The notes beneath the pieces are model-generated. The model did not search any database. It was given only the letters and a program-made list of their open reading frames with translations, and was not told the DNA's origin. From Nitrosopumilus sp. (lineage in GTDB: Archaea; Thermoproteota; Nitrososphaeria; Nitrososphaerales; Nitrosopumilaceae), in NCBI GenBank assembly GCA_965214775.1, contig OZ243974.1, positions 1,056,001-1,120,000 of the forward strand: DNA of 64,000 nt. The letters are read 5' to 3'. Positions 2,668 to 50,514 of the stretch are shown one piece after another (position 1 is the stretch's first letter; the number at the start of each line of letters is the position of its first letter). The translations under genes were made by a program, and so were the position numbers.

Positions 2668-2736
2668 CTGCCTAGGCAGGGACTATCTTATTATGTTGTT
2701 CTTGGAGATCGGGCACATCTTACATAAGCACAAATT

Positions 2737-3982
2737 CAGTAGTTCCGATTGTGGCCTGAAAATAAGGCAAATTGACAGATTTTTATGATCACTTGGATCT
2801 ATAGGGGGAACTTTTAGCAATTCCTGCATGACAAAAAGTGCCAGGGCCGCTCAAAAGCCGTACGGACACAGGGAGCGCAAGATGTTCCAGAACGCCGTCT
2901 CGGCAGTAGGCATGAAGTTCTCTGACAGACACAACGCAATATACGATGAAACGGATGCAGCTGCGCTTCTGGCAACGATGTCCAAGGAGCGCATGTGCGC
3001 AGAACAGGCCGCAGAGATACTCCGGGACTCTGCAGGCCGCAGCCCCGGCGCCGACTGGCTGCTTGGCAAGCTGGGCCAGGTGGACTATGAGACGATGCAC
3101 AAGAGGGCCGACAAGATCCTGCGCAGGACCGTCACAGACTCCATCAAGGGTGGCCTGATTGGAAAATCCCCGATCATAGCCATCGACAAGACCAAGATCC
3201 CGCGGTACGACCACAATCCGGACATGACCCACAAGATAAAGTACAGGGGGCCGGGCACCCGCACGGCTGAGGCATATATCACTGCAAGAACAGTAGGACA
3301 AAAGCACCAGACGCACCTTGCGTGCCTTCCGGTGACCAGGGACGCGTTTAACCCCGAATTCGTGCGTAAATTGCTGCAAACCATCAAGAGAATGCACATC
3401 AGGCCGCAGATGGTCCTGATGGACAAGGAGTTTTACTCAGTTGACGTACTCAACACGATAAATAATGCAGGATTGCGGTTCATGACTCCTGCAGTATGCA
3501 CCAAGGGAGTTGAGAGGGCCATACAGGAGCACATAGACGGGCACAGGGATGCAGTCAGCAAGTATACCATATCCTCTGGCAGCAGCAAGATAAGATGCAA
3601 CCTGATAATACTGGAAAGGGAGGATAAAAACAAGAAAAAGTTCCACATCGCCTTTGTCACCAACATGACCAACTGCACGCCGGAGGATTTGTTTGAGCTT
3701 CCCGAGGAGTACCGCAAGAGGTGGGGAATAGAGACCGGATACCGGGACGTCAAGAGGGCCATGCCGCGCACCTGCAGTCGGAACGATGCCATAAGACTCA
3801 TACTGTTCTACCTGTCGCTTGGAATGTCTAACATCTGGATGATCGCAAGATCATGGTGCAAAAAAAAGAAGATCAAGCTCAAGGTGCTGCTTGCCCGGAT
3901 TATAAGATGGTGTATGAGACCATGGAACAAAAAGCCCCCCGATCCGGGCTAGGGCAGGCCGGGGTCACAATCGGAACTACTG
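2737..3982 (+). mobile_element. ISH3-type insertion sequence (IS4 superfamily), copy 1
   Basis: Perfect TIR CAGTAGTTCCGATTGTG / CACAATCGGAACTACTG; 5-bp TSD AAATT on both sides. Confidence 0.93.
2828..3952 (+). CDS. ISH3-family DDE transposase
   Basis: IAID, MDKEFY and YRKRWGIETGYR motifs; 374 aa; protein identical to 47317-48441. Confidence 0.92.
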   Translation: MTKSARAAQKPYGHRERKMFQNAVSAVGMKFSDRHNAIYDETDAAALLATMSKERMCAEQAAEILRDSAGRSPGADWLLGKLGQVDYETMHKRADKILRRTVTDSIKGGLIGKSPIIAIDKTKIPRYDHNPDMTHKIKYRGPGTRTAEAYITARTVGQKHQTHLACLPVTRDAFNPEFVRKLLQTIKRMHIRPQMVLMDKEFYSVDVLNTINNAGLRFMTPAVCTKGVERAIQEHIDGHRDAVSKYTISSGSSKIRCNLIILEREDKNKKKFHIAFVTNMTNCTPEDLFELPEEYRKRWGIETGYRDVKRAMPRTCSRNDAIRLILFYLSLGMSNIWMIARSWCKKKKIKLKVLLARIIRWCMRPWNKKPPDPG

Positions 3983-4059
3983 AAATTTCCAAAAAAGTTT
4001 TGTTTTAAATAAAGAATTGATTCATTTTGTTTTAAAAATAAATTTTGATATAATTCCAC

Positions 4060-39987: not shown

Positions 39988-40911
39988 TCATTTTTTCAGA
40001 TTTATTGCACCCCTGCTGGGCTTGCAAATTACAGTCTGTGATCCTATCTTTGCCGATGAAAATCCTCTTGACATTGCCTTGCTGATCTCTGTCATGTGTG
40101 ACCTGCCTGATGCAAACGCAATTACGGATGGGCCTGCACCGCTAATTGTTACTCCTGTGGCTCCTGCCTCAAGGGCGTTTTTTTTAACCTGATCAAATCC
40201 TGGAATCATGTGTTTTCTTGCCGGCTCCACAATGACATCCACGACGGATCTTCCTATTAATGATGTGTCTCCGGTCGCAAATCCTGCCACGATTGCCGAG
40301 GCGTTTGATAAATTCAAAATACTGTCTGACAGTCTGATTCTTTTTGGAATTACCCCTCTTGACACCTTGGTTTTCTTTTTGGGAACATCCAGCCTGGGTA
40401 CTGCAACACACATTCGCAGATCTGCAGGCGGCTCAACCCTGATCACGTTGACCGGGTTTGTTTTAACAATTACAAAGCCTCCCAGCACGGATGCTGCGAC
40501 ATTGTCATAATGAATTGATCCTGCACTTGCTTTTTCTCCAGAACCGGCAAACTCTACTAGCGAGTCTTCATCTAGTTTCAAATTGAACAGCCTGTCAAAC
40601 GCAACTGCAGCAGCCGCGGCAGAGGCTGCACTGCTTCCCATTCCAAATCCCGCGGGAATTCCCTTCTTGATTCCAACTTCTATTCCGTCCTCAATCCCGA
40701 ATCTTTTTTTCATGTTTTTTACAACCAGTCCGGCCGTATTACTGTTGGAATCTTTTGGAAGATCATCTTTTGTTGCGATTGAAACCCCTGATCTTGTTTT
40801 TGAAAGCGTAATTTCATCAAAAAACGCATCAATGGCCAGGCCAAACACGTCAAATCCCGGGCCTAAATTTGCAGTTGATGCCGGTGCCTTGACTGTGACT
40901 TTTGTAACCAA
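39988..40911 (-). CDS. thrB: Homoserine kinase
   Basis: PASTANLGPGFD, GMGSSAA, HYDN, SGAGPS. Confidence 0.93.
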   Translation of the reverse strand: MVTKVTVKAPASTANLGPGFDVFGLAIDAFFDEITLSKTRSGVSIATKDDLPKDSNSNTAGLVVKNMKKRFGIEDGIEVGIKKGIPAGFGMGSSAASAAAAAVAFDRLFNLKLDEDSLVEFAGSGEKASAGSIHYDNVAASVLGGFVIVKTNPVNVIRVEPPADLRMCVAVPRLDVPKKKTKVSRGVIPKRIRLSDSILNLSNASAIVAGFATGDTSLIGRSVVDVIVEPARKHMIPGFDQVKKNALEAGATGVTISGAGPSVIAFASGRSHMTEISKAMSRGFSSAKIGSQTVICKPSRGAINLKK

Positions 40912-41670
40912 CTAGTCTTCTACCTCCTCGCCCAAGTTAAGAATTCTGCTCAGAGAACCCTCCAAATTGACCAATCCCTCTCCGGTTACATTTGAAATTG
41001 GAATCAGTCCCTGGGCAAACCCGCCCAGGTTCAATCCCCGTAAAATGCTGGAAGTCAACGCGTATGTGTCGCCATCTGCATCCTTTGCTATTGCATTTTC
41101 CAAGGAACTCAGGCTGGTTGACCACTGTAAAATGTCTCTTAATTTGTCTCCTATGATGTCTGTTTTTGTTACTGCATTAATGGCCGGCAGGTTCAAACGC
41201 AATCTGATTGAAGTGGCAAGCAGCGCTATTGAAACAAAATTTACGGGGGTTGTAATTAATGCGCCGTCGAAAAGAAAAATATTTGTCTTTTCCTCAAATG
41301 TCAGGTTTTCTACCAGGAATCGTCCACTAGAACGATACGCAAACAGTTCAATCTGACCGGGGGTATCTACGATTAGGTAATCTGGATTGACTCTGTTGAC
41401 CTCGTTGTGAACATCGTCAATTTTTGATGCAATCAGATCACTTGCCATAATTAGCGCTCCGTTTGGGCCTAGATCATACTGCTGCATTATTGATACGATA
41501 TCTACATGGTCTCTTACGTCCACATCGCAGGTATAAGGCAAGTTTTCAACACCCGGATCCAGATTTAGTACCGCAGTAAACGCTCCATTCTTTGTATAGT
41601 ATTCGTGGAGTTTTGACGTAAGTAATGATTTTCCAGAACCTGCAGTTCCCAAAACAAAAATTGATTTCAT
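40912..41670 (-). CDS. GPN-loop GTPase
   Basis: GTAGSGKS, NLDPG, LGPNG, DTPGQIE. Confidence 0.92.
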   Translation of the reverse strand: MKSIFVLGTAGSGKSLLTSKLHEYYTKNGAFTAVLNLDPGVENLPYTCDVDVRDHVDIVSIMQQYDLGPNGALIMASDLIASKIDDVHNEVNRVNPDYLIVDTPGQIELFAYRSSGRFLVENLTFEEKTNIFLFDGALITTPVNFVSIALLATSIRLRLNLPAINAVTKTDIIGDKLRDILQWSTSLSSLENAIAKDADGDTYALTSSILRGLNLGGFAQGLIPISNVTGEGLVNLEGSLSRILNLGEEVED

Positions 41671-41722
41671 CTTTCTCTACTTCTATCCAGCTTTATTTCT
41701 CATATTTCAAACTAGCTTGTTA

Positions 41723-42834
41723 TAGCAACGAGCACAAGTCTTTGAGTCAAAACAGGATCATTTGAAGGGTATAACGATCACGTAACTGGCGCAGTATGTA
41801 TGGCAAAAGAAACAGACAAAAGCCTGTCAGAGGCCATGCACAAAGAAAAGGATGCCAAAGTCTACAAGAAGATCACGGCGCTGATGTCTGTGCCAGAAGA
41901 CGATGCAGGCGTGCCCGAGACTGCAAGAAGGGTGATCCGGTGCAGCGAGAATTCCGTGCGCAGCCGGCCGGCGAGGCTTTCGGAGGACGGCATGGACTGC
42001 CTCCGGGATCTTCCCCGTTCCGGATGCAGACCAAAGGTGGACAGAAAAAAAATTGCCACCATAATGGACTTGTCCATTGAATACAACAGTACCGACGTCA
42101 TGACGGTGCGTGATGACATAAGGGATGCCACCGGGATAGAATACAACATAGAACATGTCCGAAGACTGATGCGCCAGTACGGCCTGTCGCGCCGCAAGGT
42201 GCAAAACGTACATGTCAACCATGCCACCCCAAGCTCGGTATACTCGTGGCAGCGATACCTTGAAAACGTGCGTATTCCGTGCCTGAAAAACGACGGTTTT
42301 ACGCTGGTGTCATCTGATGAGGCGTTCTTCGTGCAGGGCGCATACGACAGATACGTATGGGGTCCGGTCGGCACCAGAAGCGTGGCATCGTATTCGGGGG
42401 ATCACACAAGGGTGGCCGTGTTTGGAAGCATCGCAGAAGACGGCAGGAAGCTGTTCAGGACGTTTACGGGATCGTTTACATCGGTGTAGTTCATACAATG
42501 TCTGGAGGCGCTGCGCGCCAAGTTTGGCAAGGTTGCCGTCTTTTGCGACATATGGAGCGTGCACAGATCTACTGATGTCGCAGAATATCTGGCAGGCCAT
42601 CCCTATGTCAAACTGATAATGCTCCCAAAAGGATCGCCGTACCTCAATATTGTGGAAGAATGCTGGAACCTGGGCAGGCATGTCGTTTTCAGGGGGATAG
42701 TGTACAGAAGGATCAGCAAGCTGCGGCATGCCATATCTGAGTATTACAGGACGGTGTCGTTTGCCCACCTTTGCATGTGCAAGTACATTTACAGATCGCC
42801 GGTCAAGGCCCTCAATTACTTGTGACCGTTGCTA
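41723..42834 (+). mobile_element. IS630-family insertion sequence
   Basis: TIR TAGCAACGAGCACAAGT / ACTTGTGACCGTTGCTA with TA flanks. Confidence 0.9.
41800..42825 (+). pseudogene. IS630 transposase with in-frame TAG at 42487-42489
   Basis: DLPRSG.RPK, SDEA, FCD, LPKGSPYLNIVEECW all in one frame across the stop. Confidence 0.85.
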
Positions 42835-42848
42835 TACGATAATCCAGT

Positions 42849-44383
42849 AGACTTTATGCATAATCGGCCCATCTGATCTAAAAATACGACACAATAGATC
42901 ATTATTTGCACACCAACAACCCTAAAGATCTGTATGATTCCCTAACTGTATGGGCTCAAATGACAAGACTCTCCAAGCATTTCAAGCGTTACAAGCGCAA
43001 CACGAGATGCTAGTCGAGCAACACGAGCAGGTATCCAAGCAAAACAAACAGATGTCCAAGCAAAACGAGCGTATGAGGAAGCAGCTTGCGTTTGAGGACT
43101 CACTGTGGCAGTCCGAAGAAAACAAGACAAAAAGAGTCGTGCGCGGCGGGACGCCTCTGCGGATGCACGCAATCGAGGTTGCAGACGGCATAATCGGCGA
43201 TCCGGTGCGCCTTTGCAACGTCACGGGATGCACAAAGGAGTCATTTGAGATCATACTGGAGCGCTTTACGGAAGAAGTCATGGACGACGAGGACAGGCCC
43301 CTGTTCTGGGAGGACGACGTAAGAGGCGGCGATGCCGGAAACCGGTGCAAGCTGTACATCAGGCACGCGCTGCTTGCAGTACTCATGAGCATAAGGACCA
43401 AGGCAACGCAGCATCATCTGGCCGCAACGTTTGACGTCGACCAGTCCACAATGTCCAGGTACCTCCGGTACGGTGCCGTGTTACTGCGCCGGCTCCTGCC
43501 TGCCTCCGAAAAGCTAACAAGCATCATCTGCAAGACCCCGGCAGGCAAGCTGGAGGAGGTGCTGATCCCAAAAAAGACGCTCCTGATTGACGGTACCCTG
43601 ACTCCGGTAGACAGGCCCGGGGACAGGACCGCAAGAAAGACCAGATACTCGGGAAGAAAAAAGCGGCACATGTTCAACACGATAATTACCTCGAACCTGG
43701 ACGGCCTCATACTGCACTGCGGCAAGACTGTGGACGGAAGCGTCAACGACAAGGGCGTGATGAACGCAGGGGGCGGCCCGGACTTTGGAAGGCACACCGG
43801 ATCAATGAGGAATGCAAAAAACGCAGACGATCCGGAAGAGGCGTTTGTGATTTACAGCGACCTGGGATTTGAGGGCATTCAAAAGATGCTTCCGGGCGCC
43901 ATACACAGGCAGCCCCCAAAGAAGCCCAGGGACGGGGATCTTACTGCAACGCAAAAGAGGCGCCGCAAGCAGATAAGCAGGGTTCGCGTCAGGGTGGAGC
44001 ACCACATAGGGCGGCTCAAAAGATATGGCATTCTTACCATGCCGTTTGGCGGAACTGCCAAGGATCTCAATTATTTCATGCAGATAATCACGGGTCTTGA
44101 GAACCTCAAGACGATGTTGAAAAGGAAAAAATACTATGGCCAGCTGCTGCAGCAGCTGCATCTGCTGCCAGACACATGACATACGGCGGTACGGACCGCC
44201 ATTCTTTCTGACTTGTCAACGGGGCACATTGCCGTGCTGCATGGTTGCGCACGTTCTTTTGGCGCAACTGGCTTTTACGTGCGTCATGACACGAGATGCA
44301 TGCGGTAATTTGATCCGATCAGCGCATTTGCGTTTGGAAAAGCCTACGGAATTTTTAATCACGGTCGATTACGCATAAAGTCT
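42849..44383 (+). mobile_element. IS5/ISL2-type insertion sequence inserted in the IS110 gene
   Basis: TIR AGACTTTATGCATAATCG / CGATTACGCATAAAGTCT; 3-bp TSD AGT. Confidence 0.9.
42950..44179 (+). CDS. DDE_Tnp_4-type transposase
   Basis: HTH (FDVDQSTMSRY), IDGT, YSGRKKRH, SDLGF, RVRVEHHIGRLK; frame intact. Confidence 0.9.
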   Translation: MGSNDKTLQAFQALQAQHEMLVEQHEQVSKQNKQMSKQNERMRKQLAFEDSLWQSEENKTKRVVRGGTPLRMHAIEVADGIIGDPVRLCNVTGCTKESFEIILERFTEEVMDDEDRPLFWEDDVRGGDAGNRCKLYIRHALLAVLMSIRTKATQHHLAATFDVDQSTMSRYLRYGAVLLRRLLPASEKLTSIICKTPAGKLEEVLIPKKTLLIDGTLTPVDRPGDRTARKTRYSGRKKRHMFNTIITSNLDGLILHCGKTVDGSVNDKGVMNAGGGPDFGRHTGSMRNAKNADDPEEAFVIYSDLGFEGIQKMLPGAIHRQPPKKPRDGDLTATQKRRRKQISRVRVRVEHHIGRLKRYGILTMPFGGTAKDLNYFMQIITGLENLKTMLKRKKYYGQLLQQLHLLPDT

Positions 44384-44576
44384 AGTAGTTGGCAGTGGAC
44401 TCGCATACTACCTTTATTGGCAGCTGTCCGCGGTATTGTTCCTTGAGATATGTTGCAAAATTCGTTGTTGCCAAAACGCTGTTCTCAAACTTGGATCGCT
44501 CTAGCAGCTTGCCAGAGTCGTCCTTTACTGCTGCAACGCATGTCTTCTTATGAACGTCTATTCCTATGTTGATCAT
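44384..44576 (-). pseudogene. IS110-family DEDD recombinase, N-terminal fragment
   Basis: MINIGIDVHKK..VVCESTANY continuing as WIIV at 42835-42848 beyond the IS5 insertion; SD GGAGGTGA upstream. Confidence 0.85.
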
Positions 44577-44604
44577 TTTATCACCTCCCTTTTGATCAAA
44601 GTGT

Positions 44605-44745
44605 ATGTGCCCAACTGAACGGAAAACTCCCATTCGCCCTCAATGATGTGGCATTTCGTCGTCCGTCTACTCTGAGCCAGTCTCATACACGCCCTCATAT
44701 GTGGCAAGTTTACTTCGGCTCTTGGGCCCAACATGGATAATATGG
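44605..44745 (-). ncRNA. Candidate IS110 bridge/seek RNA
   Basis: Outer stem GCCCAA/UUGGGC enclosing arms GAGCC/GGCUC and ACGGA/UCCGU, each with an internal loop and a UGCCACAU..GAGGGCG hairpin. Confidence 0.7.
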
Positions 44746-45224
44746 CGTCCGCTACAGATAAGATTTGATATAACGTCTCATACAAGGAGAACAGGAAGTT
44801 TGCAGAATGGGTGTGACTGTATGTGTTGCACTGCGGGGACGGGAGGTGGGTGACCCTGCATGGTGCGGTCATGGAAGGGGTGTCCGTCCCCTGGCCCCAC
44901 CCACCCAATGATCTTATAGGATATGTTTGCACCCGACGGCATGAAACGTTTCAAATGGATATCATGGTTAGGAATTTACCGCGTTATCAGTATGAGGATA
45001 ATGCCTCGGGGAACTAACTGCGGGATCGCCTAACAAATGGATGAAGATGGTACTGGGGGAAGGCCCCGAATGGATACATGTCCGCCCATCCTTTGGAAGT
45101 GGATCAACCCTAGCGAAAGTCATGCACCATGTCACGAAATCTAGGAAAATGCTTAAAAAGAATTCACATGGATACTGACAGTATTATCATTTTAACTTAA
45201 TTAGTTGTGTGTTGGATAGTCTAA

Positions 45225-45740
45225 TCATGTGAGACCTGCATCCCCAACATCCGAAACTGATACGCTATCAGTAGTGTTGTGTGCAGCCCATAGATATGGA
45301 TCTCCCAATTGATTAGTATAATCTACATACCATTCTAATTTTGACAAAATTGTTCTACGTTTTAGAATGACTGGGGGATCTCCTTGTATCACAAATTCAT
45401 TCCAAGGTTCAAAAGGTTGGTCTTGTATGTAGCTTGTTAATTCCATTTTCTTTGCTTTCTTCATATCTTCTGGTGTGGGATTTGATGTGGGTTCTTTTTT
45501 CTTTCCTCTATTGGTAAATGAAACAATCATTTGTCCTCCAACCATGAATGTTGGATCAGTGGATATTTTTTGATTTGGCGGTATTTTTTCATCAGGAACT
45601 TGCATAATGTTAGCTGGGATATTCACCAAGCGTAACGTTCCTTGTACTTGGGAATGATCAATTTCATATGTGTTATACTGAATCTTTTTAATTCGAAATA
45701 ATTTATCAACAAGATCTTTTGGGTTTATTCGAACCGACAT
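45225..45740 (-). CDS. Hypothetical protein with two related halves
   Basis: YNTYEI..GTLRL..DPTF and EPWNEFVI..ILKR..GDPY. Confidence 0.7.
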   Translation of the reverse strand: MSVRINPKDLVDKLFRIKKIQYNTYEIDHSQVQGTLRLVNIPANIMQVPDEKIPPNQKISTDPTFMVGGQMIVSFTNRGKKKEPTSNPTPEDMKKAKKMELTSYIQDQPFEPWNEFVIQGDPPVILKRRTILSKLEWYVDYTNQLGDPYLWAAHNTTDSVSVSDVGDAGLT

Positions 45741-45743
45741 TTT

Positions 45744-46166
45744 CTAGACTCTTGTTTTCTTTGTAAGTAAAATTACTTGTAGGTTATCATTATATAACCT
45801 GTCAGCGTTATCTATTGCTTCCAGTATATGAAGCACATCATTTGAAGATTGAATTTCTTGTTTGTTCTCATGAATTTGTTCTCTTGTTTGATCATTACTA
45901 GCTCGTTTGAAATAATTTATCTTAAATGGAATTTGTTCAGTTTCTGGAATATCCTGGTTTATTGCTAATTGTTTTGCTTGAATCATTGCCTTGTCATAAC
46001 CACTTTCAGTTAATGCAGAATAATTGCACATAGGACATACATAAGATTCAAAATTGCCTACATGTTCCCCATACATTTTGAATGGAGCATTTTTTTTCTG
46101 TAACGATATAAAACATCTAGGACAGCCAATATCACCACTACTGTTTCTAATGGGAGACTCGTTCAT
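45744..46166 (-). CDS. YgiT/MqsA-type zinc-finger protein, putative antitoxin
   Basis: CPRC..ESYVCPMC at N-terminus, polar tail. Confidence 0.65.
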   Translation of the reverse strand: MNESPIRNSSGDIGCPRCFISLQKKNAPFKMYGEHVGNFESYVCPMCNYSALTESGYDKAMIQAKQLAINQDIPETEQIPFKINYFKRASNDQTREQIHENKQEIQSSNDVLHILEAIDNADRLYNDNLQVILLTKKTRV

Positions 46167-46230
46167 GATGTTAGTGCGCCATATCTTAATAAATACTTAC
46201 TAAAATAAGTTGAAAACAAATCATTCCTGC

Positions 46231-46461
46231 TCATGCCTGATAGGCTGTTCGTAAATATAAAAAACAACTACGCAATGATACAATAATCTCCCATTTTTCC
46301 CACTTTACTTGATATTCGTTTTTCGTCATTTCGATTTTTTTACCCTCTTTTAATGCGACCTTAATTTGACTTGATGGCAAATGTCTATCATTCATCCTAT
46401 CCATAAAGTGATTATCATAAATCCGTTCACAATCTTTCCAGGGATCTACCAATATGACCAA
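46231..46461 (-). CDS. DUF4258/RelE-like small protein, putative toxin
   Basis: YDNHFMDRMNDRHL..VALKEG..C-terminal RTAY. Confidence 0.6.
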   Translation of the reverse strand: MVILVDPWKDCERIYDNHFMDRMNDRHLPSSQIKVALKEGKKIEMTKNEYQVKWEKWEIIVSLRSCFLYLRTAYQA

Positions 46462-46852
46462 ACAATAATTTTTACTATATTTTTCTATGTTTTTTCAGAC
46501 ATATTTCTTTAATTTTTTACGCATTTCTTCCTGTTAACTATCGGGACAGGATAAATACGGCAACGATATTAGATGAGCATGAGTGTCGGTAAGCTGCAAA
46601 TTATGCAATCATCTAGATGATAATCTGTCAGCCTAGTCTACACCTCTTGCGGTATCCTTGCAAACGTATCGGTGAGTACGATTTTTACAACCGCAATTAC
46701 CTCTTTTTCCTATTCAAATCACTTCCTCCAAGGACTTCGAGGAGGAAGCTACTGCGATCAACGGCCTCGTGAAAACCATGGAGCAAAACGGGCTCTCGAT
46801 CAAAGGACTGTAAACGACAGGGTTGTGAAAACTGACTGCTAATATTTATACA

Positions 46853-46890
46853 AGACCTTATGCGTAATCGACCGGATCAAAATATTCCGA
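46853..46890. repeat. Solo end of the IS5/ISL2-type element
   Basis: AGACCTTATGCGTAATCGACCG matches the reverse complement of the 44383 end. Confidence 0.6.
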
Positions 46891-46951
46891 CGGTGGCCGG
46901 CCACACATGCAAAGCTGACGGCATCACATGACGTGTATGAGCACGGTAAAG

Positions 46952-47088
46952 TGGAGTGGACCCCTGTAAGTAGAAACGATTTTGGCGACATTTTATGCAC
47001 ACTTTAATCGCTCATTTTTGCGGCACCTCCTGCATTTTCCGGACAAACTCGTCCGGCGTCAGGTATCCCAGTGCCGAGTGGATCCTGT
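46952..47088 (-). pseudogene. IS3-family transposase C-terminus and right end
   Basis: RIHSALGYLTPDEF..stop, followed by GGGGTCCACTCCA terminus. Confidence 0.7.
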
Positions 47089-47181
47089 GTATGTGGTCAC
47101 GTCCCCCTGTTGACTAGGTGTGAAAATCATAGTCATAGATGTCAATTCGTGCCTGATTGGCAGGGGTAGGTGACCTCATAC
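47089..47181. mobile_element. 93-bp MITE, inverted relative of 34657-34749
   Basis: TIR GTATGTGGTCAC / GTGACCTCATAC; degenerate flanks GATCCTGT / GATCTTTT. Confidence 0.82.
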
Positions 47182-47207
47182 GATCTTTTTCGTAGTTTTA
47201 TATACGA

Positions 47208-47284
47208 ATGCACATTTGAAAAAATAATTTTATATAAATACATGCACATTTGAAAAAATAATTTTATATAAATACATGCACATT
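47208..47284 (+). repeat. 34-bp tandem duplication containing BRE/TATA-like motif
   Basis: ATGCACATTTGAAAAAATAATTTTATATAAATAC twice plus ATGCACATT. Confidence 0.9.
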
Positions 47285-47286
47285 CC

Positions 47287-48531
47287 CAGTAGTTCCGATT
47301 GTGACCCCGGCCTGCCCTAGCCCGGATCGGGGGGCTTTTTGTTCCATGGTCTCATACACCATCTTATAATCCGGGCAAGCAGCACCTTGAGCTTGATCTT
47401 CTTTTTTTTGCACCATGATCTTGCGATCATCCAGATGTTAGACATTCCAAGCGACAGGTAGAACAGTATGAGTCTTATGGCATCGTTCCGACTGCAGGTG
47501 CGCGGCATGGCCCTCTTGACGTCCCGGTATCCGGTCTCTATTCCCCACCTCTTGCGGTACTCCTCGGGAAGCTCAAACAAATCCTCCGGCGTGCAGTTGG
47601 TCATGTTGGTGACAAAGGCGATGTGGAACTTTTTCTTGTTTTTATCCTCCCTTTCCAGTATTATCAGGTTGCATCTTATCTTGCTGCTGCCAGAGGATAT
47701 GGTATACTTGCTGACTGCATCCCTGTGCCCGTCTATGTGCTCCTGTATGGCCCTCTCAACTCCCTTGGTGCATACTGCAGGAGTCATGAACCGCAATCCT
47801 GCATTATTTATCGTGTTGAGTACGTCAACTGAGTAAAACTCCTTGTCCATCAGGACCATCTGCGGCCTGATGTGCATTCTCTTGATGGTTTGCAGCAATT
47901 TACGCACGAATTCGGGGTTAAACGCGTCCCTGGTCACCGGAAGGCACGCAAGGTGCGTCTGGTGCTTTTGTCCTACTGTTCTTGCAGTGATGTATGCCTC
48001 AGCCGTGCGGGTGCCCGGCCCCCTGTACTTTATCTTGTGGGTCATGTCCGGATTGTGGTCGTACCGCGGGATCTTGGTCTTGTCGATGGCTATGATCGGG
48101 GATTTTCCAATCAGGCCACCCTTGATGGAGTCTGTGACGGTCCTGCGCAGGATCTTGTCGGCCCTCTTGTGCATCGTCTCATAGTCCACCTGGCCCAGCT
48201 TGCCAAGCAGCCAGTCGGCGCCGGGGCTGCGGCCTGCAGAGTCCCGGAGTATCTCTGCGGCCTGTTCTGCGCACATGCGCTCCTTGGACATCGTTGCCAG
48301 AAGCGCAGCTGCATCCGTTTCATCGTATATTGCGTTGTGTCTGTCAGAGAACTTCATGCCTACTGCCGAGACGGCGTTCTGGAACATCTTGCGCTCCCTG
48401 TGTCCGTACGGCTTTTGAGCGGCCCTGGCACTTTTTGTCATGCAGGAATTGCTAAAAGTTCCCCCTATAGATCCAAGTGATCATAAAATCTGTCAATTTG
48501 CCTTATTTTCAGGCCACAATCGGAACTACTG
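47287..48531 (-). mobile_element. ISH3-type insertion sequence, copy 2
   Basis: Same TIRs as copy 1; 5-bp TSD ATTCC; one indel and one synonymous change noticed against copy 1. Confidence 0.93.
47317..48441 (-). CDS. ISH3-family DDE transposase
   Basis: Protein identical to 2828-3952. Confidence 0.92.
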   Translation of the reverse strand: MTKSARAAQKPYGHRERKMFQNAVSAVGMKFSDRHNAIYDETDAAALLATMSKERMCAEQAAEILRDSAGRSPGADWLLGKLGQVDYETMHKRADKILRRTVTDSIKGGLIGKSPIIAIDKTKIPRYDHNPDMTHKIKYRGPGTRTAEAYITARTVGQKHQTHLACLPVTRDAFNPEFVRKLLQTIKRMHIRPQMVLMDKEFYSVDVLNTINNAGLRFMTPAVCTKGVERAIQEHIDGHRDAVSKYTISSGSSKIRCNLIILEREDKNKKKFHIAFVTNMTNCTPEDLFELPEEYRKRWGIETGYRDVKRAMPRTCSRNDAIRLILFYLSLGMSNIWMIARSWCKKKKIKLKVLLARIIRWCMRPWNKKPPDPG

Positions 48532-48878
48532 ATTCCAGCATTATGAGCCTAAGCCCTGCCTCGTATGATGACAATCCTTGGTGGACAGATATTGACGAAA
48601 TCAATCAAGAACGGGAGATTAAAAATTGGGAGGACAGCCCAATCAAGTGGGATCCTAGGATACGTCAAGCATTTGATTTTACAAATGATATAATCTACTC
48701 TCTGCGGGGACCAAGACAGGTTGGCAAAACAACCCTGTTGAAGTTACAGATTAGGGAATTCCTTCAAAATGGCGTATCGCCCTGGAATATAATGTACTAT
48801 GCGTTTGACGTTGACAACTCTCCGAAAAACCTAGTGGAGGTTATCGAAAACTACCTAAACAGCACCAAGAGGCTACGT

Positions 48879-49001
48879 CAGTACTTCCTAGGTGTGCTTT
48901 TGCAGACCCGGCACGACATAGCCGCTAATTTTGTTTACGCATAAGGTCTTCTGCAAATTACGTAATTGCCGTGCCTGTAAAAGTACACTTGGGAAGTACT
49001 G
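48879..49001. mobile_element. 123-bp MITE, left copy
   Basis: TIR CAGTACTTCC / GGAAGTACTG; identical to 50563-50685. Confidence 0.92.
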
Positions 49002-49022
49002 ACTTAGATGTTACCCAGCGCC

Positions 49023-49143
49023 CAGTCTTCCTAAATGTACCCGATTCATGGCGGTGCAGATTATGACATGCGGATCTACAGGCAGCTTAGTTTGCACTGT
49101 TTCGAACTTGGAGCCGTTTTGTGGGGAACTTTTGGGAAGACTG
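49023..49143. mobile_element. MITE of the CAGTCTTCCC family inside the insert
   Basis: CAGTCTTCCTAAA...TTGGAGCC...TTGGGAAGACTG. Confidence 0.82.
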
Positions 49144-49187
49144 ACTTAAGATAATAATATAAGAAACCTTCTGGAAGGCAAATCACA

Positions 49188-49724
49188 ATGTCTGCTGCAT
49201 TACTTGATCATATTACTGACCGAATCAACAAAATGGAAGATGACGGGGCGGTAGACGAGGCCATAGTTGACGATTTGGATGAACTCAAACAAAAATTACT
49301 GGATGTTGAAGATAGATGGCTTTCAGTTGATGACAAAAACAGCTTCTACTTTTATCAAGGAATCCGTGACGTGGAGTTGATTCTTGAAAGAATGGTCGAA
49401 CGATTCAAAGCTGCAAAAATAAAACATGACAATCCCCAAATTGCACTAGACACGCTTGCAGTGATTCCTATTGTAAATGAAATTATTCAAATTGCCGAAC
49501 ATGGCAAAGCAGATGACGCAGCTGTAAATCAAATTTTGGAGCGTACGCACCAGTTGCGAGACAAGGCTCACGAGACAAATCTTATCGAGTCTGACGAAAG
49601 AAACCTGCATGAAGTAGACAAGGAAACACTGGGCAAATCCTTTGACAAGGTTCTTGACACTCTGGAGATTCCGTCTGATTTGCCAGACGACGTATGCGTT
49701 GACGAGGATAAAGATATTTCCTGA
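49188..49724 (+). CDS. Acidic helical protein, putative antitoxin
   Basis: 178 aa, Asp/Glu-rich, overlaps the PIN-like gene. Confidence 0.7.
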   Translation: MSAALLDHITDRINKMEDDGAVDEAIVDDLDELKQKLLDVEDRWLSVDDKNSFYFYQGIRDVELILERMVERFKAAKIKHDNPQIALDTLAVIPIVNEIIQIAEHGKADDAAVNQILERTHQLRDKAHETNLIESDERNLHEVDKETLGKSFDKVLDTLEIPSDLPDDVCVDEDKDIS

Positions 49725-50514
49725 TTCTAGCGTAATAGTATCTGCCAGTATTCAGGCAAATGTTGCAAGTATTGGCGTAACGGTAAAGCACCGATTCTAT
49801 GAGGACTCGATACATCTGTTCAGCATTTTTCGAAAACGCGCAAACAAAGGCATGGGAGTAACCACTAAGACAGTTCGCGGCGAATCCTTTCATGCTCTAT
49901 CCAGGGCTGTAACAAATTCCATTTTAGAGAACCTTCCTGCAGAAAAAGACAAGCGAAAAAGATTGTTTGATGAGACAACCTCGATTGTTAACCTGTGTGA
50001 CAGCAAAATGAGAGATCTGTTTTCTACTCTGCTGCTGGAAACTCCCTCAAATGACATTGTTCGGCAATGCGTGACCGATGTGACTGACATGTCAAAACAT
50101 ATCAAAATGCGTTACGAATCCAGATACATCAACAGAACGAATCGCAACATTGAGGCCAAACGCAGGACTGAGTCGATAACAAACTCGACATGGAAAGGGA
50201 CTTTGAAGGGTGAGGCATATCGTGCGCAAAGATTACAGGTAGAACGGGAAGCAGTCCAGGTGAAAAAATTCATGTCAAAATATCCAAATCCCGGAGACAG
50301 CAGGATACTGGCCGAGGCTTTGGCAATCAAGAGACAGATCGAGACCTATGGACAACATGTGAATTTCTATATTGCGTCTTCCGATACCGGATTTTTCTCC
50401 CCTCATAGAGTGAAGGGTGGTGCAAAATCTGATATTGTAACCAATGAGATAAGCACCAGGTTTGGAATAACCTGTGATTTTCCAGCAGAAATCAGAAAAT
50501 TGGCTAATCTATGA
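49699..50514 (+). CDS. Large PIN-like domain protein
   Basis: IFPDSSVIV, GDSRILAEA and IASSDTGF acidic motifs; TTG 49699 start inferred. Confidence 0.65.
   Translation: MTRIKIFPDSSVIVSASIQANVASIGVTVKHRFYEDSIHLFSIFRKRANKGMGVTTKTVRGESFHALSRAVTNSILENLPAEKDKRKRLFDETTSIVNLCDSKMRDLFSTLLLETPSNDIVRQCVTDVTDMSKHIKMRYESRYINRTNRNIEAKRRTESITNSTWKGTLKGEAYRAQRLQVEREAVQVKKFMSKYPNPGDSRILAEALAIKRQIETYGQHVNFYIASSDTGFFSPHRVKGGAKSDIVTNEISTRFGITCDFPAEIRKLANL

What the first reader, a model, noticed from the sequence alone, without database searches (positions are those of the whole stretch)
44384..44784. Candidate archaeal IS110 bridge RNA: a three-way junction with two guide arms, one matching the element's probable end
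Seen in sequence: the minus strand upstream of the IS110 fragment (GIDVHK..ESTANYW) reads GCCCAA-GAGCC-gaaguaaacu-UGCCacauaugagGGCG-uguaugagacu-GGCUC-agaguag-ACGGA-cgacgaaa-UGCCacaucauugagGGCG-aaugggaguuu-UCCGU-ucag-UUGGGC. An outer stem closes two arms, each an internal loop capped by nearly the same hairpin. The 3' loop strand of arm 1 (TGTATGAGAC, 44680-44689) recurs exactly at 44775-44784, next to a TATA-like TTATAT. Established: IS110 recombinases such as IS621 use a non-coding RNA with target- and donor-binding loops around a 2-nt core. Inference: applying IS621 geometry gives a CT core and sites GAAGTAAA-CT-CATACA (arm 1) and ...CT-CCCATT (arm 2, whose 5' guide lacks CT, perhaps by decay). 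Which arm is donor or target is unresolved, and this copy's recombinase is broken. I do not know of this architecture being described in Thaumarchaeota.
Basis: partly seen in the sequence, partly recalled or inferred. Interest (0 to 1): 0.85.

Follow-up and report, generated by a model that had tools for sequence, protein, structure and literature searches.

The report
Archaeal IS110-family bridge RNA relic
This is the guide-RNA gene of a jumping gene in an ammonia-oxidising archaeon: its loops spell out both the DNA site the element inserts into and the element's own ends, as in bacterial bridge-RNA systems, although this copy has lost its enzyme gene.

Summary
The minus strand 44727-44609 encodes a bridge (seek) RNA of an IS110/IS1111-family element. 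The left end lies at 44776. The recombinase gene is cut off after 64 codons.

- **Copies:** the genome gives 33 blastn matches to this leader region and has three intact 359-aa recombinase genes. A covariance model finds homologues in 8 of 150 other genomes of the class, all in one family.
- **Structure:** four helices are recovered by RNAalifold on a plain alignment, and all five show compensatory changes.
- **Boundaries:** empty paralogous sites define the ends and a 2-nt core, AG on the coding strand.
- **Arm 1 is the target loop.** Its 3' strand equals the left flank (5 nt) + AG + the first 2 nt of the element. Its 5' strand is the reverse complement of AG + the right flank. Both covary with the flanks (0 of 20000 shuffles).
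- **Arm 2 is the donor loop.** Its 3' strand equals the right-end ATGGG + AG. Its 5' strand covaries with left-end positions 2-7 but skips the core.
- **Predicted targets:** 12-mers read from the RNA alone occur 12-60 times in the genome (0.34 expected), at the termini of other IS/MITE elements.

The element mixes IS1111 traits (subterminal inverted repeats, guide order) with an upstream RNA. No RNA data exist. I rate it a new archaeal member of a known kind.

The parts
44779..44784 (-). Left target flank TGTATG. It is host DNA: the first bases of the terminal repeat of another IS/MITE into which the element inserted.
   Evidence: Homology among the 33 blastn matches begins just inside this point. 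It is identical to the arm-1 3' strand (6/6). GTA[T/A/C]GAGTTTAC is the start of a repeat present about 120 times in the genome.
44777..44778 (-). Core dinucleotide AG (CT on the other strand), left copy.
   Evidence: Placed by a rule independent of the guides (4 nt upstream of the conserved TATATG-like motif), AG precedes the left end in all 42 copies kept for the flank test. Flank + AG + flank reconstructions match uninterrupted paralogous sites 82/82.
44732..44776 (-). Left end (LE) of the element: ACGTTATATC..., with the subterminal inverted repeat ATATCAAAT (44771-44763) and TATA-like TTATAT (44773-44768). Probable promoter region of the RNA.
   Evidence: The LE start is defined by copy comparison and empty sites. 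Subterminal repeats lie at LE+6 / RE-4 and covary between genera. The group-A repeat is read. The promoter role is inferred only.
44609..44727 (-). Bridge RNA core: an outer stem closing two arms (three-way junction).
   Evidence: Covariance model R1 scores this copy 129.6 bits.
44707..44716 (-). Arm 1, 5' strand GAAGTAAA-CT: a target guide complementary to the coding-strand sequence AG-TTTAC... that follows the right end.
   Evidence: Across copies, right flanks match the reverse complement of this strand: 87/144 against 53.4 +/- 5.3 shuffled, 0/20000. Five of 6 group-A right ends are followed by TTTAC.
44679..44689 (-). Arm 1, 3' strand TGTATG-AG-AC-T: a target guide (same sense as the left flank + core) followed by a 2-nt handshake guide equal to the first 2 nt of LE.
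   Evidence: 158/216 identities against 75.2 +/- 7.2 shuffled, 0/20000. The AC / LE match is shown in the same table.
44654..44662 (-). Arm 2, 5' strand (last stem A + CGACGAAA): a donor guide whose first 6 nt resemble the reverse complement of LE positions 2-7, followed by a conserved A-rich run in place of the core complement.
   Evidence: best of 108 registers, 79/102 against 60.6 +/- 3.4, 0/20000. This copy matches only 4 of 6.
44624..44634 (-). Arm 2, 3' strand AATGGG-AG-TT-T: a donor guide equal to the right-end terminus ATGGG + core, then a handshake dinucleotide TT equal to the first 2 nt of the predicted right flank.
   Evidence: The right ends read in six genomes mostly end ATGGG-AG, with a few variants. 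The strand does not vary, so there is no covariation test.
44382..44576 (-). Truncated recombinase gene: 64 codons holding the first D and the E of the DEDD site, then a stop. Homology ends at 44384, where another IS end (AGACTTTATGCG...) begins.
   Evidence: The same foreign end is seen as the left flank of the copy at genome 2634823. No remainder of the gene lies nearby.
42950..44179 (+). Transposase gene (DDE_Tnp_4, 409 aa) lying next to the break in the IS110-family gene. It probably belongs to the IS whose end abuts at 44383. It is not part of the bridge-RNA element.
   Evidence: PF13359, E 6.9e-21. That this gene and the abutting end are one IS is my inference; I did not map that IS's ends.

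Best explanation
The locus is the left end of an IS110/IS1111-family insertion sequence of an ammonia-oxidising archaeon. It carries that element's bridge (seek) RNA gene directly upstream of the recombinase gene.

Inferred mechanism, by analogy with IS621 and the seekRNA elements: the DEDD/Ser recombinase binds the RNA. Arm 1 reads the target. Its 5' strand pairs with the coding strand of AG plus 3-9 nt to the right. Its 3' strand pairs with the other strand of 5 nt plus the core to the left. Arm 2 reads the joined ends of the excised circle. Its 3' strand corresponds to right end ATGGG + AG, and its 5' strand to left-end positions 2-7. The two bases after each AG match the other partner (handshake guides). 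Exchange at the 2-nt core inserts the ~1.33-kb element with one extra AG.

The natural targets are termini of other IS/MITE families.

Shown here: element boundaries, core, conserved structure, guide/flank and guide/end correspondences, and intact DEDD/Ser recombinase paralogues. Inferred: transcription, RNA-protein binding and catalysis.

The window copy is a dead relic. Its RNA gene and left junction are intact, its recombinase is truncated, and no intact cognate (group A) recombinase exists in the genome.
For: **Copies and recombinase**
- The own genome gives 33 blastn matches to this leader region.
- Three recombinase genes are full-length at 359 aa. They match PF01548 at 6.3e-28 and PF02371 at 4.9e-23, and NF033542 'IS110 family RNA-guided transposase' at 248.6 bits against a 140-bit cut-off.
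- The intact protein aligns to IS621 transposase 8wt6 at E 4e-12, with GLTPSRRDS opposite IS621's GLTPRRYES.

**Boundaries**
- Flank + AG + flank reconstructions hit uninterrupted paralogous sites at 82/82 identity: 5 loci for two copies and 1 locus for another.

**Structure**
- Own-genome alignment A1: 94.2% of cells paired against 23-43% slid, with 7 pairs changed on both sides.
- Model-fitted alignment A3 (48 sequences): 91.3% paired against 24-43% slid, 16 of 25 pairs with compensatory change, 0/500 shuffles.
- RNAalifold on the unfitted alignment recovers 4 of 5 helices. The fifth forms 5/5 pairs in 17 of 23 unique rows once each row's own register is used.

**Distribution**
- Model R1 hits 8 of 150 other genomes of the class. 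All hits are in the window's family (8/80) and none in 70 genomes of 11 other families.

**Target loop**
- Left flank against arm-1 3' strand: 158/216 identities against 75.2 +/- 7.2, 0/20000 (36 unique pairs from 42 copies).
- Right flank against the reverse complement of the arm-1 5' strand: 87/144 against 53.4 +/- 5.3, 0/20000 (18 unique pairs from 24 rows).

**Donor loop**
- The arm-2 3' strand AATGGGAG equals the right end + core in nearly all right ends read.
- The arm-2 5' strand against the reverse complement of LE: 79/102 against 60.6 +/- 3.4, 0/20000. Within one genome, LE ATGCC pairs with TGGCA and LE ATGCT with TAGCA.

**Prediction from the RNA alone**
- GTATG-AG-TTTAC (this copy) occurs 14 times, GTAAG-AG-TTTAC 60, TCAGT-AG-TTCCG (intact copies) 12, and CTTAT-AG-ATCAT 17. 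Each is expected 0.34 times.
- The sites are termini of other repeats.
Against: - No RNA evidence: no listed sequencing run is on record as RNA. The transcript, its ends and its processing are inferred.
- The fold of the single sequence is not significant.
- Rfam has no match.
- The arm-2 3' strand never varies, so its match to the right end is a conserved identity, not covariation.
- The arm-2 5' register was picked after the fact from 108 registers, and it does not pair with the core, unlike what is described for IS621.
- Misfits exist. Genome copy 2169361 matches its left flank 1/6, copy 1690496 2/6, L058 2/6 and L048 3/6; L048's right flank fits only with a 2-nt offset. Copy 2634823 matches its right flank 2/8. 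L058 and L063 have no CT in the arm-1 5' strand.
- Copies are related by descent, so shuffle counts overstate independence.
- Alignment A3 is fitted to the model.
- The window copy cannot act in cis, and no intact group-A recombinase exists.
Confidence: 0.9

Rival explanations
1. The RNA is only a target-seeking RNA. Arm 1 guides target choice, while arm 2 is a structural or protein-binding module and the ends are recognised by the protein through the subterminal inverted repeats.
For: The arm-2 3' strand is invariant, so no covariation can be shown. The arm-2 5' strand lacks a core complement and matches only 4-6 of 6 positions. Subterminal inverted repeats of 7-11 nt are present and covary. 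Siddiquee et al. suggest that end recognition may differ in IS1111-type elements (section 6 read).
Against: The 7-nt identity of AATGGGAG with right end + core holds in nearly all right ends read. The arm-2 5' strand tracks changes in the left end, including within one genome. The dinucleotide after AG in arm 2 follows the target's first bases, at least at the first position (TT, AT).
Confidence: 0.07
2. The structure is a cis-regulatory 5' leader of the transposase mRNA (translation or stability control), and the matches to flanks are by-products of site-specific insertion by a protein-only mechanism.
For: The structure sits 33 nt upstream of the ATG and is followed by GGAGGTGA. ISPpu9 has a structured 5' UTR that regulates tnp (introduction passages read).
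Against: A protein-only mechanism does not explain why more than 20 different loop 6-mers each match their own copy's flank. It also does not explain why 12-mers read from the loops are enriched 35-175 fold in the genome. The recombinase belongs to the family NCBI names RNA-guided.
Confidence: 0.02
3. Chance: a GC-balanced leader that happens to fold, plus a chance 10-mer repeat.
For: Single-sequence z-scores of -1.43 and +1.07.
Against: The 10-mer is expected 0.03 times in the window. Structure and guide logic are conserved in six genera.
Confidence: 0.01

Closest known systems
IS621 bridge RNA (IS110 group; Durrant et al. 2024, PMC11208160, passages read; Hiraizumi et al. 2024, PMC11208158, passages read)
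   Same: - The RNA is encoded upstream of a DEDD/Ser recombinase gene.
- There are two internal loops, first target and then donor.
- The 5' strand of the target loop ends in CT, and the 3' strands carry AG followed by a 2-nt handshake guide matching the other partner.
- The core is 2 nt, and the CT/AG core is included in three of the four guides.
- The intact protein aligns to 8wt6.
   Different: - Relative to the gene, the guide that is complementary to the coding strand comes first; the text describes the reverse for IS621.
- An outer stem closes both arms, instead of a separate 5' stem-loop.
- The donor 5' strand stops one base short of the core and is followed by AAA(A)T.
- Subterminal inverted repeats are 7-11 nt, against 2-3 nt reported for the IS110 group.
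- There is no sign of a junction-spanning bacterial promoter.
- No Rfam or sequence-level RNA similarity was found.
IS1111-type seekRNA elements (ISEc11, ISPa11, ISKpn4; Siddiquee et al. 2024, PMC11187229, sections 6 and 12 and passages read)
   Same: - Subterminal inverted repeats are set a few bases in from the ends.
- The top-strand complement lies 5' of the bottom-strand complement in the RNA.
- Preferred targets are the ends of other mobile elements or repeats.
- Natural reprogramming is seen among relatives.
   Different: The non-coding region and RNA lie upstream of tnp here, whereas they lie downstream in almost all IS1111 members. The paper names ISMtsp17 (upstream) and ISHvo10 / ISAcp5 (both sides) as exceptions. 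The recombinase is 359 aa, against 330-350 aa for that family. Clade membership was not tested.
ISEc21 (IS110 type with upstream seekRNA; same paper)
   Same: The NCR is upstream. It inserts into a conserved site inside other IS elements. The recombinase is of similar size (358 aa).
   Different: The order of the two target matches is reversed. No subterminal repeats are described for that type.
ISPpu9 / MITEPpu9 of Pseudomonas putida (PMC12288879, passages read)
   Same: There is an invariant AG at both ends of the integrated element. Short non-autonomous derivatives flanked by the element's ends exist in the same genome.
   Different: In ISPpu9 the small RNA carried by the MITE is Ssr9, downstream of tnp. 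Here the ~480-bp derivatives keep the bridge RNA itself and carry their own guide variants that match their own flanks.

Membership tests
IS110-family RNA-guided (bridge/seek RNA) insertion sequence | Recombinase with an N-terminal DEDD RuvC-like domain and a C-terminal Transposase_20 domain carrying the conserved Ser | tested here: met
   Intact paralogue: PF01548 6.3e-28, PF02371 4.9e-23, NF033542 248.6 bits. GIDVHK, CESTANY, KDDRVDA and GLTPSRRDS align to IS621. The window copy keeps only the first 64 aa.
IS110-family RNA-guided (bridge/seek RNA) insertion sequence | Structured non-coding RNA gene in a long non-coding end, with two internal loops | tested here: met
   Five helices, 16 of 25 pairs with compensatory change, and 91-94% paired against 23-43% slid.
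IS110-family RNA-guided (bridge/seek RNA) insertion sequence | Both strands of one loop match the two sides of the insertion site, overlapping at a 2-nt core, and covary with it | tested here: met
   (0/20000 shuffles each). Empty sites. Genome-wide enrichment of predicted 12-mers.
IS110-family RNA-guided (bridge/seek RNA) insertion sequence | The second loop matches the joined ends of the element (donor) | tested here: inconclusive
   The 3' strand equals right end + core in nearly all right ends read but never varies. The 5' strand covaries with left-end positions 2-7 (register chosen post hoc) and does not cover the core.
IS110-family RNA-guided (bridge/seek RNA) insertion sequence | The RNA is expressed, binds the recombinase and is required for recombination; a circular intermediate with abutted ends exists | not testable with these tools
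   No run on record as RNA.
IS1111 group | Subterminal inverted repeats of about 7-17 bp | tested here: met
   7-11 nt at LE+6 / RE-4 (or LE+4 / RE-2, LE+10 / RE-8), differing between genera but kept complementary.
IS1111 group | Long non-coding region / RNA downstream of tnp | tested here: not met
   The RNA lies 33 nt upstream of the ATG in all copies. About 45 nt separate the stop codon from the right end in intact copies.
IS1111 group | [quoted passage not shown] | tested here: met
   The arm-1 5' strand is complementary to the coding strand and the 3' strand to the other strand. 'Top' is taken to mean the tnp sense strand; the paper's figures could not be seen.
IS1111 group | Transposase clusters with IS1111 transposases over its full length | not tested
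   No labelled reference set was on hand. The nearest plasmid-borne relatives are haloarchaeal, at ~38% identity.
IS110 group (IS621 / ISEc21-like) | Upstream RNA, no or very short subterminal repeats, bottom-strand complement first | tested here: not met
   Upstream RNA: met. The repeats are long and the guide order is reversed.

The most novel reading that the evidence does not exclude
The Nitrososphaeraceae-type elements form a separate archaeal lineage that combines the two known architectures. The bridge RNA lies upstream as in the IS110 group. The subterminal inverted repeats and guide order follow the IS1111 group. The donor left guide has given up pairing with the core. This could be close to the arrangement from which the RNA moved between element ends, as Durrant et al. 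postulated. The lineage is actively reprogrammed in nature: there are at least 17 guide pairs in one genome, including ~480-bp recombinase-less derivatives that carry their own guides and so choose their own targets while borrowing the enzyme.
Probability: 0.35. Interest if true: 0.65.

Novelty: new member of a known kind. Interest (0 to 1): 0.5.

Why it matters
- **Extends the mechanism to archaea.** It takes a sequence-level, covariation-backed bridge-RNA mechanism into ammonia-oxidising archaea. For archaea, the papers I could search mention only the recombinase proteins.
- **A rare mix of features.** The family combines features used to separate the IS110 and IS1111 groups, which bears on how the RNA gene moved between element ends.
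- **A natural reprogramming series.** One genome holds a series of guide variants with their targets, which gives rules for guide length: 5 + 2 nt on one side and 3-9 + 2 nt on the other.
- **Practical use.** From my own knowledge, ammonia-oxidising archaea still lack genetic tools. A native RNA-programmable recombinase with three intact copies is an obvious candidate to try.
- **Annotation.** For this window, it explains an otherwise anonymous 400-nt stretch as an IS relic.

Tried and rejected
- **Rfam.** A scan of 40000-50000 at E up to 10 gave only three chance miRNA-model matches and no bridge-RNA family.
- **Single-sequence folding.** Not informative.
- **RNA evidence.** No RNA holder was listed among 4 runs of one study, all kept as contigs.
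- **Core choice.** I first considered GA, GT or TT as the core from the three intact copies alone. I rejected them once the empty sites and the tandem junction at genome 2788413 showed AG.
- **Arm assignment.** I first read the 10-mer match as a donor (left-end) match. I rejected this because the 5-6 variable bases lie outside the element.
- **Arm-2 5' strand sense.** I considered that it resembles the left end in the same sense. I rejected this because the best same-sense register scores 49/102 against 79/102 antisense.
- **'Mirrored relative to IS621' as a novelty.** I reduced this claim after reading that IS1111-type seekRNAs have this order and that ISPpu9 has AG ends.
- **Haloarchaeal relative.** R1 run with filters off on plasmid NZ_CP008875.1 found no significant match, best E 0.18. 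Short look-alike motifs there remain a lead only.
- **Remainder of the window copy's recombinase gene.** None found near 42000-44385.
- **Arm finder.** A finder based on complementarity alone mis-placed stems in many relatives. I replaced it with model-based columns.
- **Not seen.** Supplementary files of the papers, and all figures, were not seen. The IS621 and IS1111 guide maps in them could sharpen or change the comparison of strand order.
Full report
**What is there**

On the minus strand, 44727-44609 reads as an outer stem (GCCCAA/TTGGGC) closing two arms.

- An ATG at 44576 lies 33 nt downstream. It opens a 64-codon fragment that matches the N-terminal DEDD domain of IS110 transposases: PF01548, E 1.7e-6, just under the curated cut-off because it is a fragment.
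- Homology to intact paralogues stops at 44384, where the end of another IS abuts.
- A DDE_Tnp_4 transposase gene lies at 42950-44179.
- No remainder of the IS110-type gene is nearby.
- The genome is a single 2.83-Mb contig. It encodes archaeal AmoA (386 bits) and an archaeal SSU rRNA, so 'ammonia-oxidising archaeon' is justified.

**Is it more than chance?**

The 10-mer TGTATGAGAC occurs at 44680-44689 and 44775-44784, with 0.03 occurrences expected per window. Two further occurrences lie in two copies of an unrelated IS. The minimum-free-energy fold of the single sequence is not significant, at z -1.43 and +1.07. Rfam has nothing. The case therefore rests on comparison.

**Copies**

The own genome gives 33 blastn matches to 44384-44800.

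- They fall into a 'group A', 91-97% identical to the window copy. All of these are truncated or interrupted.
- 'Group B' is 77-81% identical in the leader.
- Three group-B copies carry an intact 359-aa gene. It matches PF01548 + PF02371 and NF033542 'IS110 family RNA-guided transposase' at 248.6 bits against a 140-bit cut-off. It aligns to IS621 transposase 8wt6 at E 4e-12, and the DEDD and Ser motifs line up.
- Several copies are ~480-bp deletion derivatives: left end + RNA + the last ~110-225 nt of the element.
- The only group-A-like gene, at genome 403965-405124, is split into two frames and is about 55% identical to group B.

**Ends and core**

Aligning the three intact copies shows where similarity starts and stops. 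The decisive evidence is empty sites. Joining 40 nt of left flank + AG + 40 nt of right flank reproduces uninterrupted paralogous sequences at 82/82 identity. This holds at five loci for the copies at 181523 and 1124146, and at one locus for 2726200.

- The element runs from ACG[C/T]TATAT... to ...TTTCATATGGG, about 1334 bp in intact copies by my arithmetic.
- Insertion adds the element plus a second AG.
- In the window the core is 44778-44777 and the left end starts at 44776.
- The ends carry subterminal inverted repeats of 7-11 nt at LE+6 / RE-4. These differ between genera yet stay complementary: ATATGAAATC, ATATGAAAAAT, CCATGTGT(T), ATGTGTT.

**Structure**

- On a plain MAFFT alignment of 25 own-genome copies, the five helices pair in 94.2% of cells, against 23-43% when the 3' partners are slid. 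Seven pairs change on both sides. Most of these changes are the single A/B split, so they represent few independent events. The measure 'further pair types' did not beat shuffles (497/500).
- RNAalifold on the same alignment recovers the outer stem, the arm-1 stem and both hairpins on its own. It misses the arm-2 closing stem. That stem is out of register by one column between groups. With each row's own register, 17 of 23 unique rows form 5/5 pairs.
- A covariance model (R1) found matches in 8 of 150 other genomes sampled from the class. All lie in the window's family (8/80), and none in 70 genomes of 11 other families. Six of 48 genera are represented. One of the eight, G132, is marked unpublished and supports nothing else here.
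- On the model-fitted alignment of 48 sequences, 91.3% of cells pair against 24-43% slid, and 16 of 25 pairs show compensatory change (0/500 shuffles). A fitted alignment leans towards its model.

**Arm 1 reads the target**

I placed the left end by a rule that ignores the guides: 4 nt upstream of the conserved TATATG-like motif. Under this rule the two bases before it are AG in all 42 copies kept for the flank test.

- *Left flank.* The 6 nt before AG match the 6 nt before AG in that copy's own arm-1 3' strand at 158 of 216 positions. Shuffled pairings give 75.2 +/- 7.2 (0/20000). The test used 36 unique pairs from 42 copies. Six rows were dropped for a missing left end or an unparsable loop: L047, 369559, 1269630, 2343017, L060, L070. 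With one row for each of 23 distinct guides, the result is 95/138 against 45.2 +/- 5.6 (0/20000). The usual match is 5 contiguous nt. The window copy matches 6/6.
- *Right flank.* The flank matches the reverse complement of the bases before CT in the arm-1 5' strand at 87 of 144 positions, against 53.4 +/- 5.3 (0/20000). This used 18 unique pairs from 24 rows. Two rows of genome G036 have no CT and were left out. One of them, L063, fits if CA stands for CT. Contiguous matches run from 3 to 7 nt, and L087 matches 7 of the 8 positions scored.
- *After the AG.* The arm-1 3' strand carries AC, or A + another base, which equals the first bases of the left end (table). This is the position of the handshake guide described for IS621 (passages read).

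**Arm 2 reads the ends**

- *3' strand.* It is AATGGGAG in nearly all copies. Nearly all right ends I could read in six genomes end ATGGG followed by AG. Because nothing varies, this is a conserved 7-nt identity, not covariation. The two bases after it (TT in group A, AT in group B, TT, TA or TC in relatives) agree with the first base of the right flank in most copies and with both bases in some.
- *5' strand.* It does not contain a core complement. Scanning 108 registers in both senses, the best is antisense: the last stem A plus five bases against the reverse complement of left-end positions 2-7. The score is 79/102 against 60.6 +/- 3.4 for shuffled pairings (0/20000; 17 unique pairs; register chosen post hoc). 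Within genome G117, left ends ATGCC and ATGCT go with TGGCA and TAGCA.
- *Conserved A-run.* The strand then continues with a conserved AAA(A)T where IS621 is said to pair with the core. I have no explanation for this run.

**Prediction from the RNA alone**

I built 12-mers from the two arm-1 strands only. Each is expected 0.34 times by chance.

| Source of guide pair | 12-mer | Exact sites in the genome |
|---|---|---|
| Window copy | GTATG-AG-TTTAC | 14 |
| Sister variant | GTAAG-AG-TTTAC | 60 |
| Two of the three intact copies | TCAGT-AG-TTCCG | 12 |
| Another variant | CTTAT-AG-ATCAT | 17 |

- Ten of the 17 guide pairs have no exact site, but they have 5-31 one-mismatch sites, against roughly 10 expected by my estimate.
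- The group-A sites are the first bases of the terminal repeat of a very abundant IS/MITE family. Flanks diverge immediately to the left of GTA. This explains why only 5 nt of left flank are read.
- The intact copies' sites are the termini of a ~1.25-kb IS with a DDE_Tnp_1 transposase. The match there extends to 14 nt, TCAGT-AG-TTCCGAT. Two copies of that IS lie in this window, with the site at 2736-2749, 3970-3983 and 48519-48532, and with one mismatch at 47286-47299.

**Misfits, told in full**

- Copy 2169361 has a left flank of the TCAGT type but a CTTAT guide (1/6).
- Copy 1690496 matches 2/6.
- L058 matches 2/6, and its flank fits the guide of its sister copies.
- L048 matches 3/6 on the left. 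On the right it fits only with a 2-nt offset.
- Copy 2634823 fits on the left (4/6) but not on the right (2/8).
- These may be recombinants between copies, decayed copies or relaxed insertions. I did not resolve them.

**Comparison with what is known**

- Durrant et al. (PMC11208160; abstract and passages read) describe IS621. The first loop reads the target and the second the donor. The 5' strands pair with the bottom strand over 8-9 nt including the core. The 3' strands pair with the top strand over 4-7 nt. Hiraizumi et al. (PMC11208158; passages) describe handshake guides just 3' of the core complement. The loop order, the CT/AG positions and the handshake positions are the same here.
- Siddiquee et al. 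(PMC11187229; abstract, sections 6 and 12 and passages) report two arrangements. In IS1111-type seekRNAs the top-strand complement lies 5' of the bottom-strand complement. In the IS110-type ISEc21 the order is reversed. IS1111 types have subterminal inverted repeats and a downstream non-coding region, with rare exceptions: ISMtsp17 upstream, ISHvo10 and ISAcp5 on both sides.
- Taking 'top' as the tnp sense strand (the figures were not available to me), the archaeal family has the IS1111 order and IS1111-like repeats but an upstream RNA.
- ISPpu9 also has AG at both ends and a MITE derivative (PMC12288879, passages), so neither feature is new.
- Vaysset et al. (bioRxiv 10.1101/2024.06.21.599552; passages) count 662 archaeal IS110 recombinases in several clades. 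In the passages I saw, they describe no archaeal bridge RNA.
- My searches found no paper linking bridge or seek RNAs to Nitrososphaera or Thaumarchaeota. Durrant's survey did include archaeal genomes, so such RNAs may sit unmentioned in its supplements, which I could not open.

**Verdict**

It is a bridge RNA gene of an IS110/IS1111-family element. Arm 1 is the target loop and arm 2 the donor loop. The core is AG on the coding strand, and the target is the terminus of another mobile element. The window copy is a dead relic. Function at the RNA and protein level is inferred, not shown. I class it as a new, archaeal member of a known kind with an unusual mix of subgroup features, and I put its interest at 0.5.

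Noticed in passing
window 2736-3983 and 47286-48532: Two copies of a ~1.25-kb IS with a 374-aa DDE_Tnp_1 transposase. Its termini carry TCAGTAGTTCCGAT, the 14-nt site predicted from arm 1 of the intact group-B bridge RNAs. These look like unoccupied targets (4 termini, one with a mismatch).
   Followed up: partly
genome 2788413 (locus L011 region) and genome 1348582: In two places an IS110-family right end, or a target terminus, is joined directly to the DNA that encodes the arm-1 3' guide of another copy (...GGG-AG-ACTGACTCG... and ...GGGTGTTCAGT-AG-TTCCGATTG...). It looks as if the guide-coding DNA, which mimics left flank + core, had served as a half-site for recombination.
   Followed up: no
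genome 1209796 (minus strand): A target terminus holds only 17 nt of the right end (GTACGATTTCATATGGG) between two AG cores. This may be a footprint of recombination at an internal AG.
   Followed up: no
genome 2749475-2751252 (L007 / L061): One intact copy is followed by a direct partial repeat of its own last ~420 nt. The join is ...CATATGGG-AG-ATATCAGG..., at an internal ATATCAG that resembles the flank of the left end.
   Followed up: no
window 48882-49000: A ~119-nt inverted-repeat unit (TACTTCCTAGGTGTGCTTTTGCAGACC... and its complement). It looks like a MITE. Related termini (TTCCTAGRTGTAC) flank several group-B copies on the right.
   Followed up: partly
genome-wide, e.g. 2036232-2036322 and 2820845-2821043: A very abundant family of ~100-200-nt MITE-like units and larger IS has termini GTA[A/C/T]GAGTTTACCCC. 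About 120 termini match the group-A predicted target. The same family has itself inserted into group-A IS110 copies (e.g. at genome 835033).
   Followed up: partly
genome 635401, 1533515, 1626327, 1906695, 1983080, 2022643, 2401674, 2404435: A second, distant IS110-family lineage (about 33% identical recombinase) has eight near full-length copies. Its own non-coding RNA was not examined.
   Followed up: no
L095 (NZ_CP008875.1) 600-895 and 1890-2090: A haloarchaeal relative (37.6% identical recombinase) has non-coding regions on both sides of the gene. The upstream one holds GCGAATAGGTGTC after a hairpin, and the downstream one holds TTCATAGGTGTTTAGAC. This suggests an analogous donor guide with a TG core.
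   Followed up: partly
window 41800-42489: A fragment of a further transposase (weak DDE_3 and HTH matches). The 41-48 kb stretch of the window is a cluster of nested and broken IS elements.
   Followed up: no
alignment A1 columns 71-72 with 85-86: RNAalifold proposes a 2-bp contact between the linker joining the two arms and the arm-2 5' strand. It changes on both sides between groups A and B (CG to UA in 7 rows). It is too short to judge.
   Followed up: no
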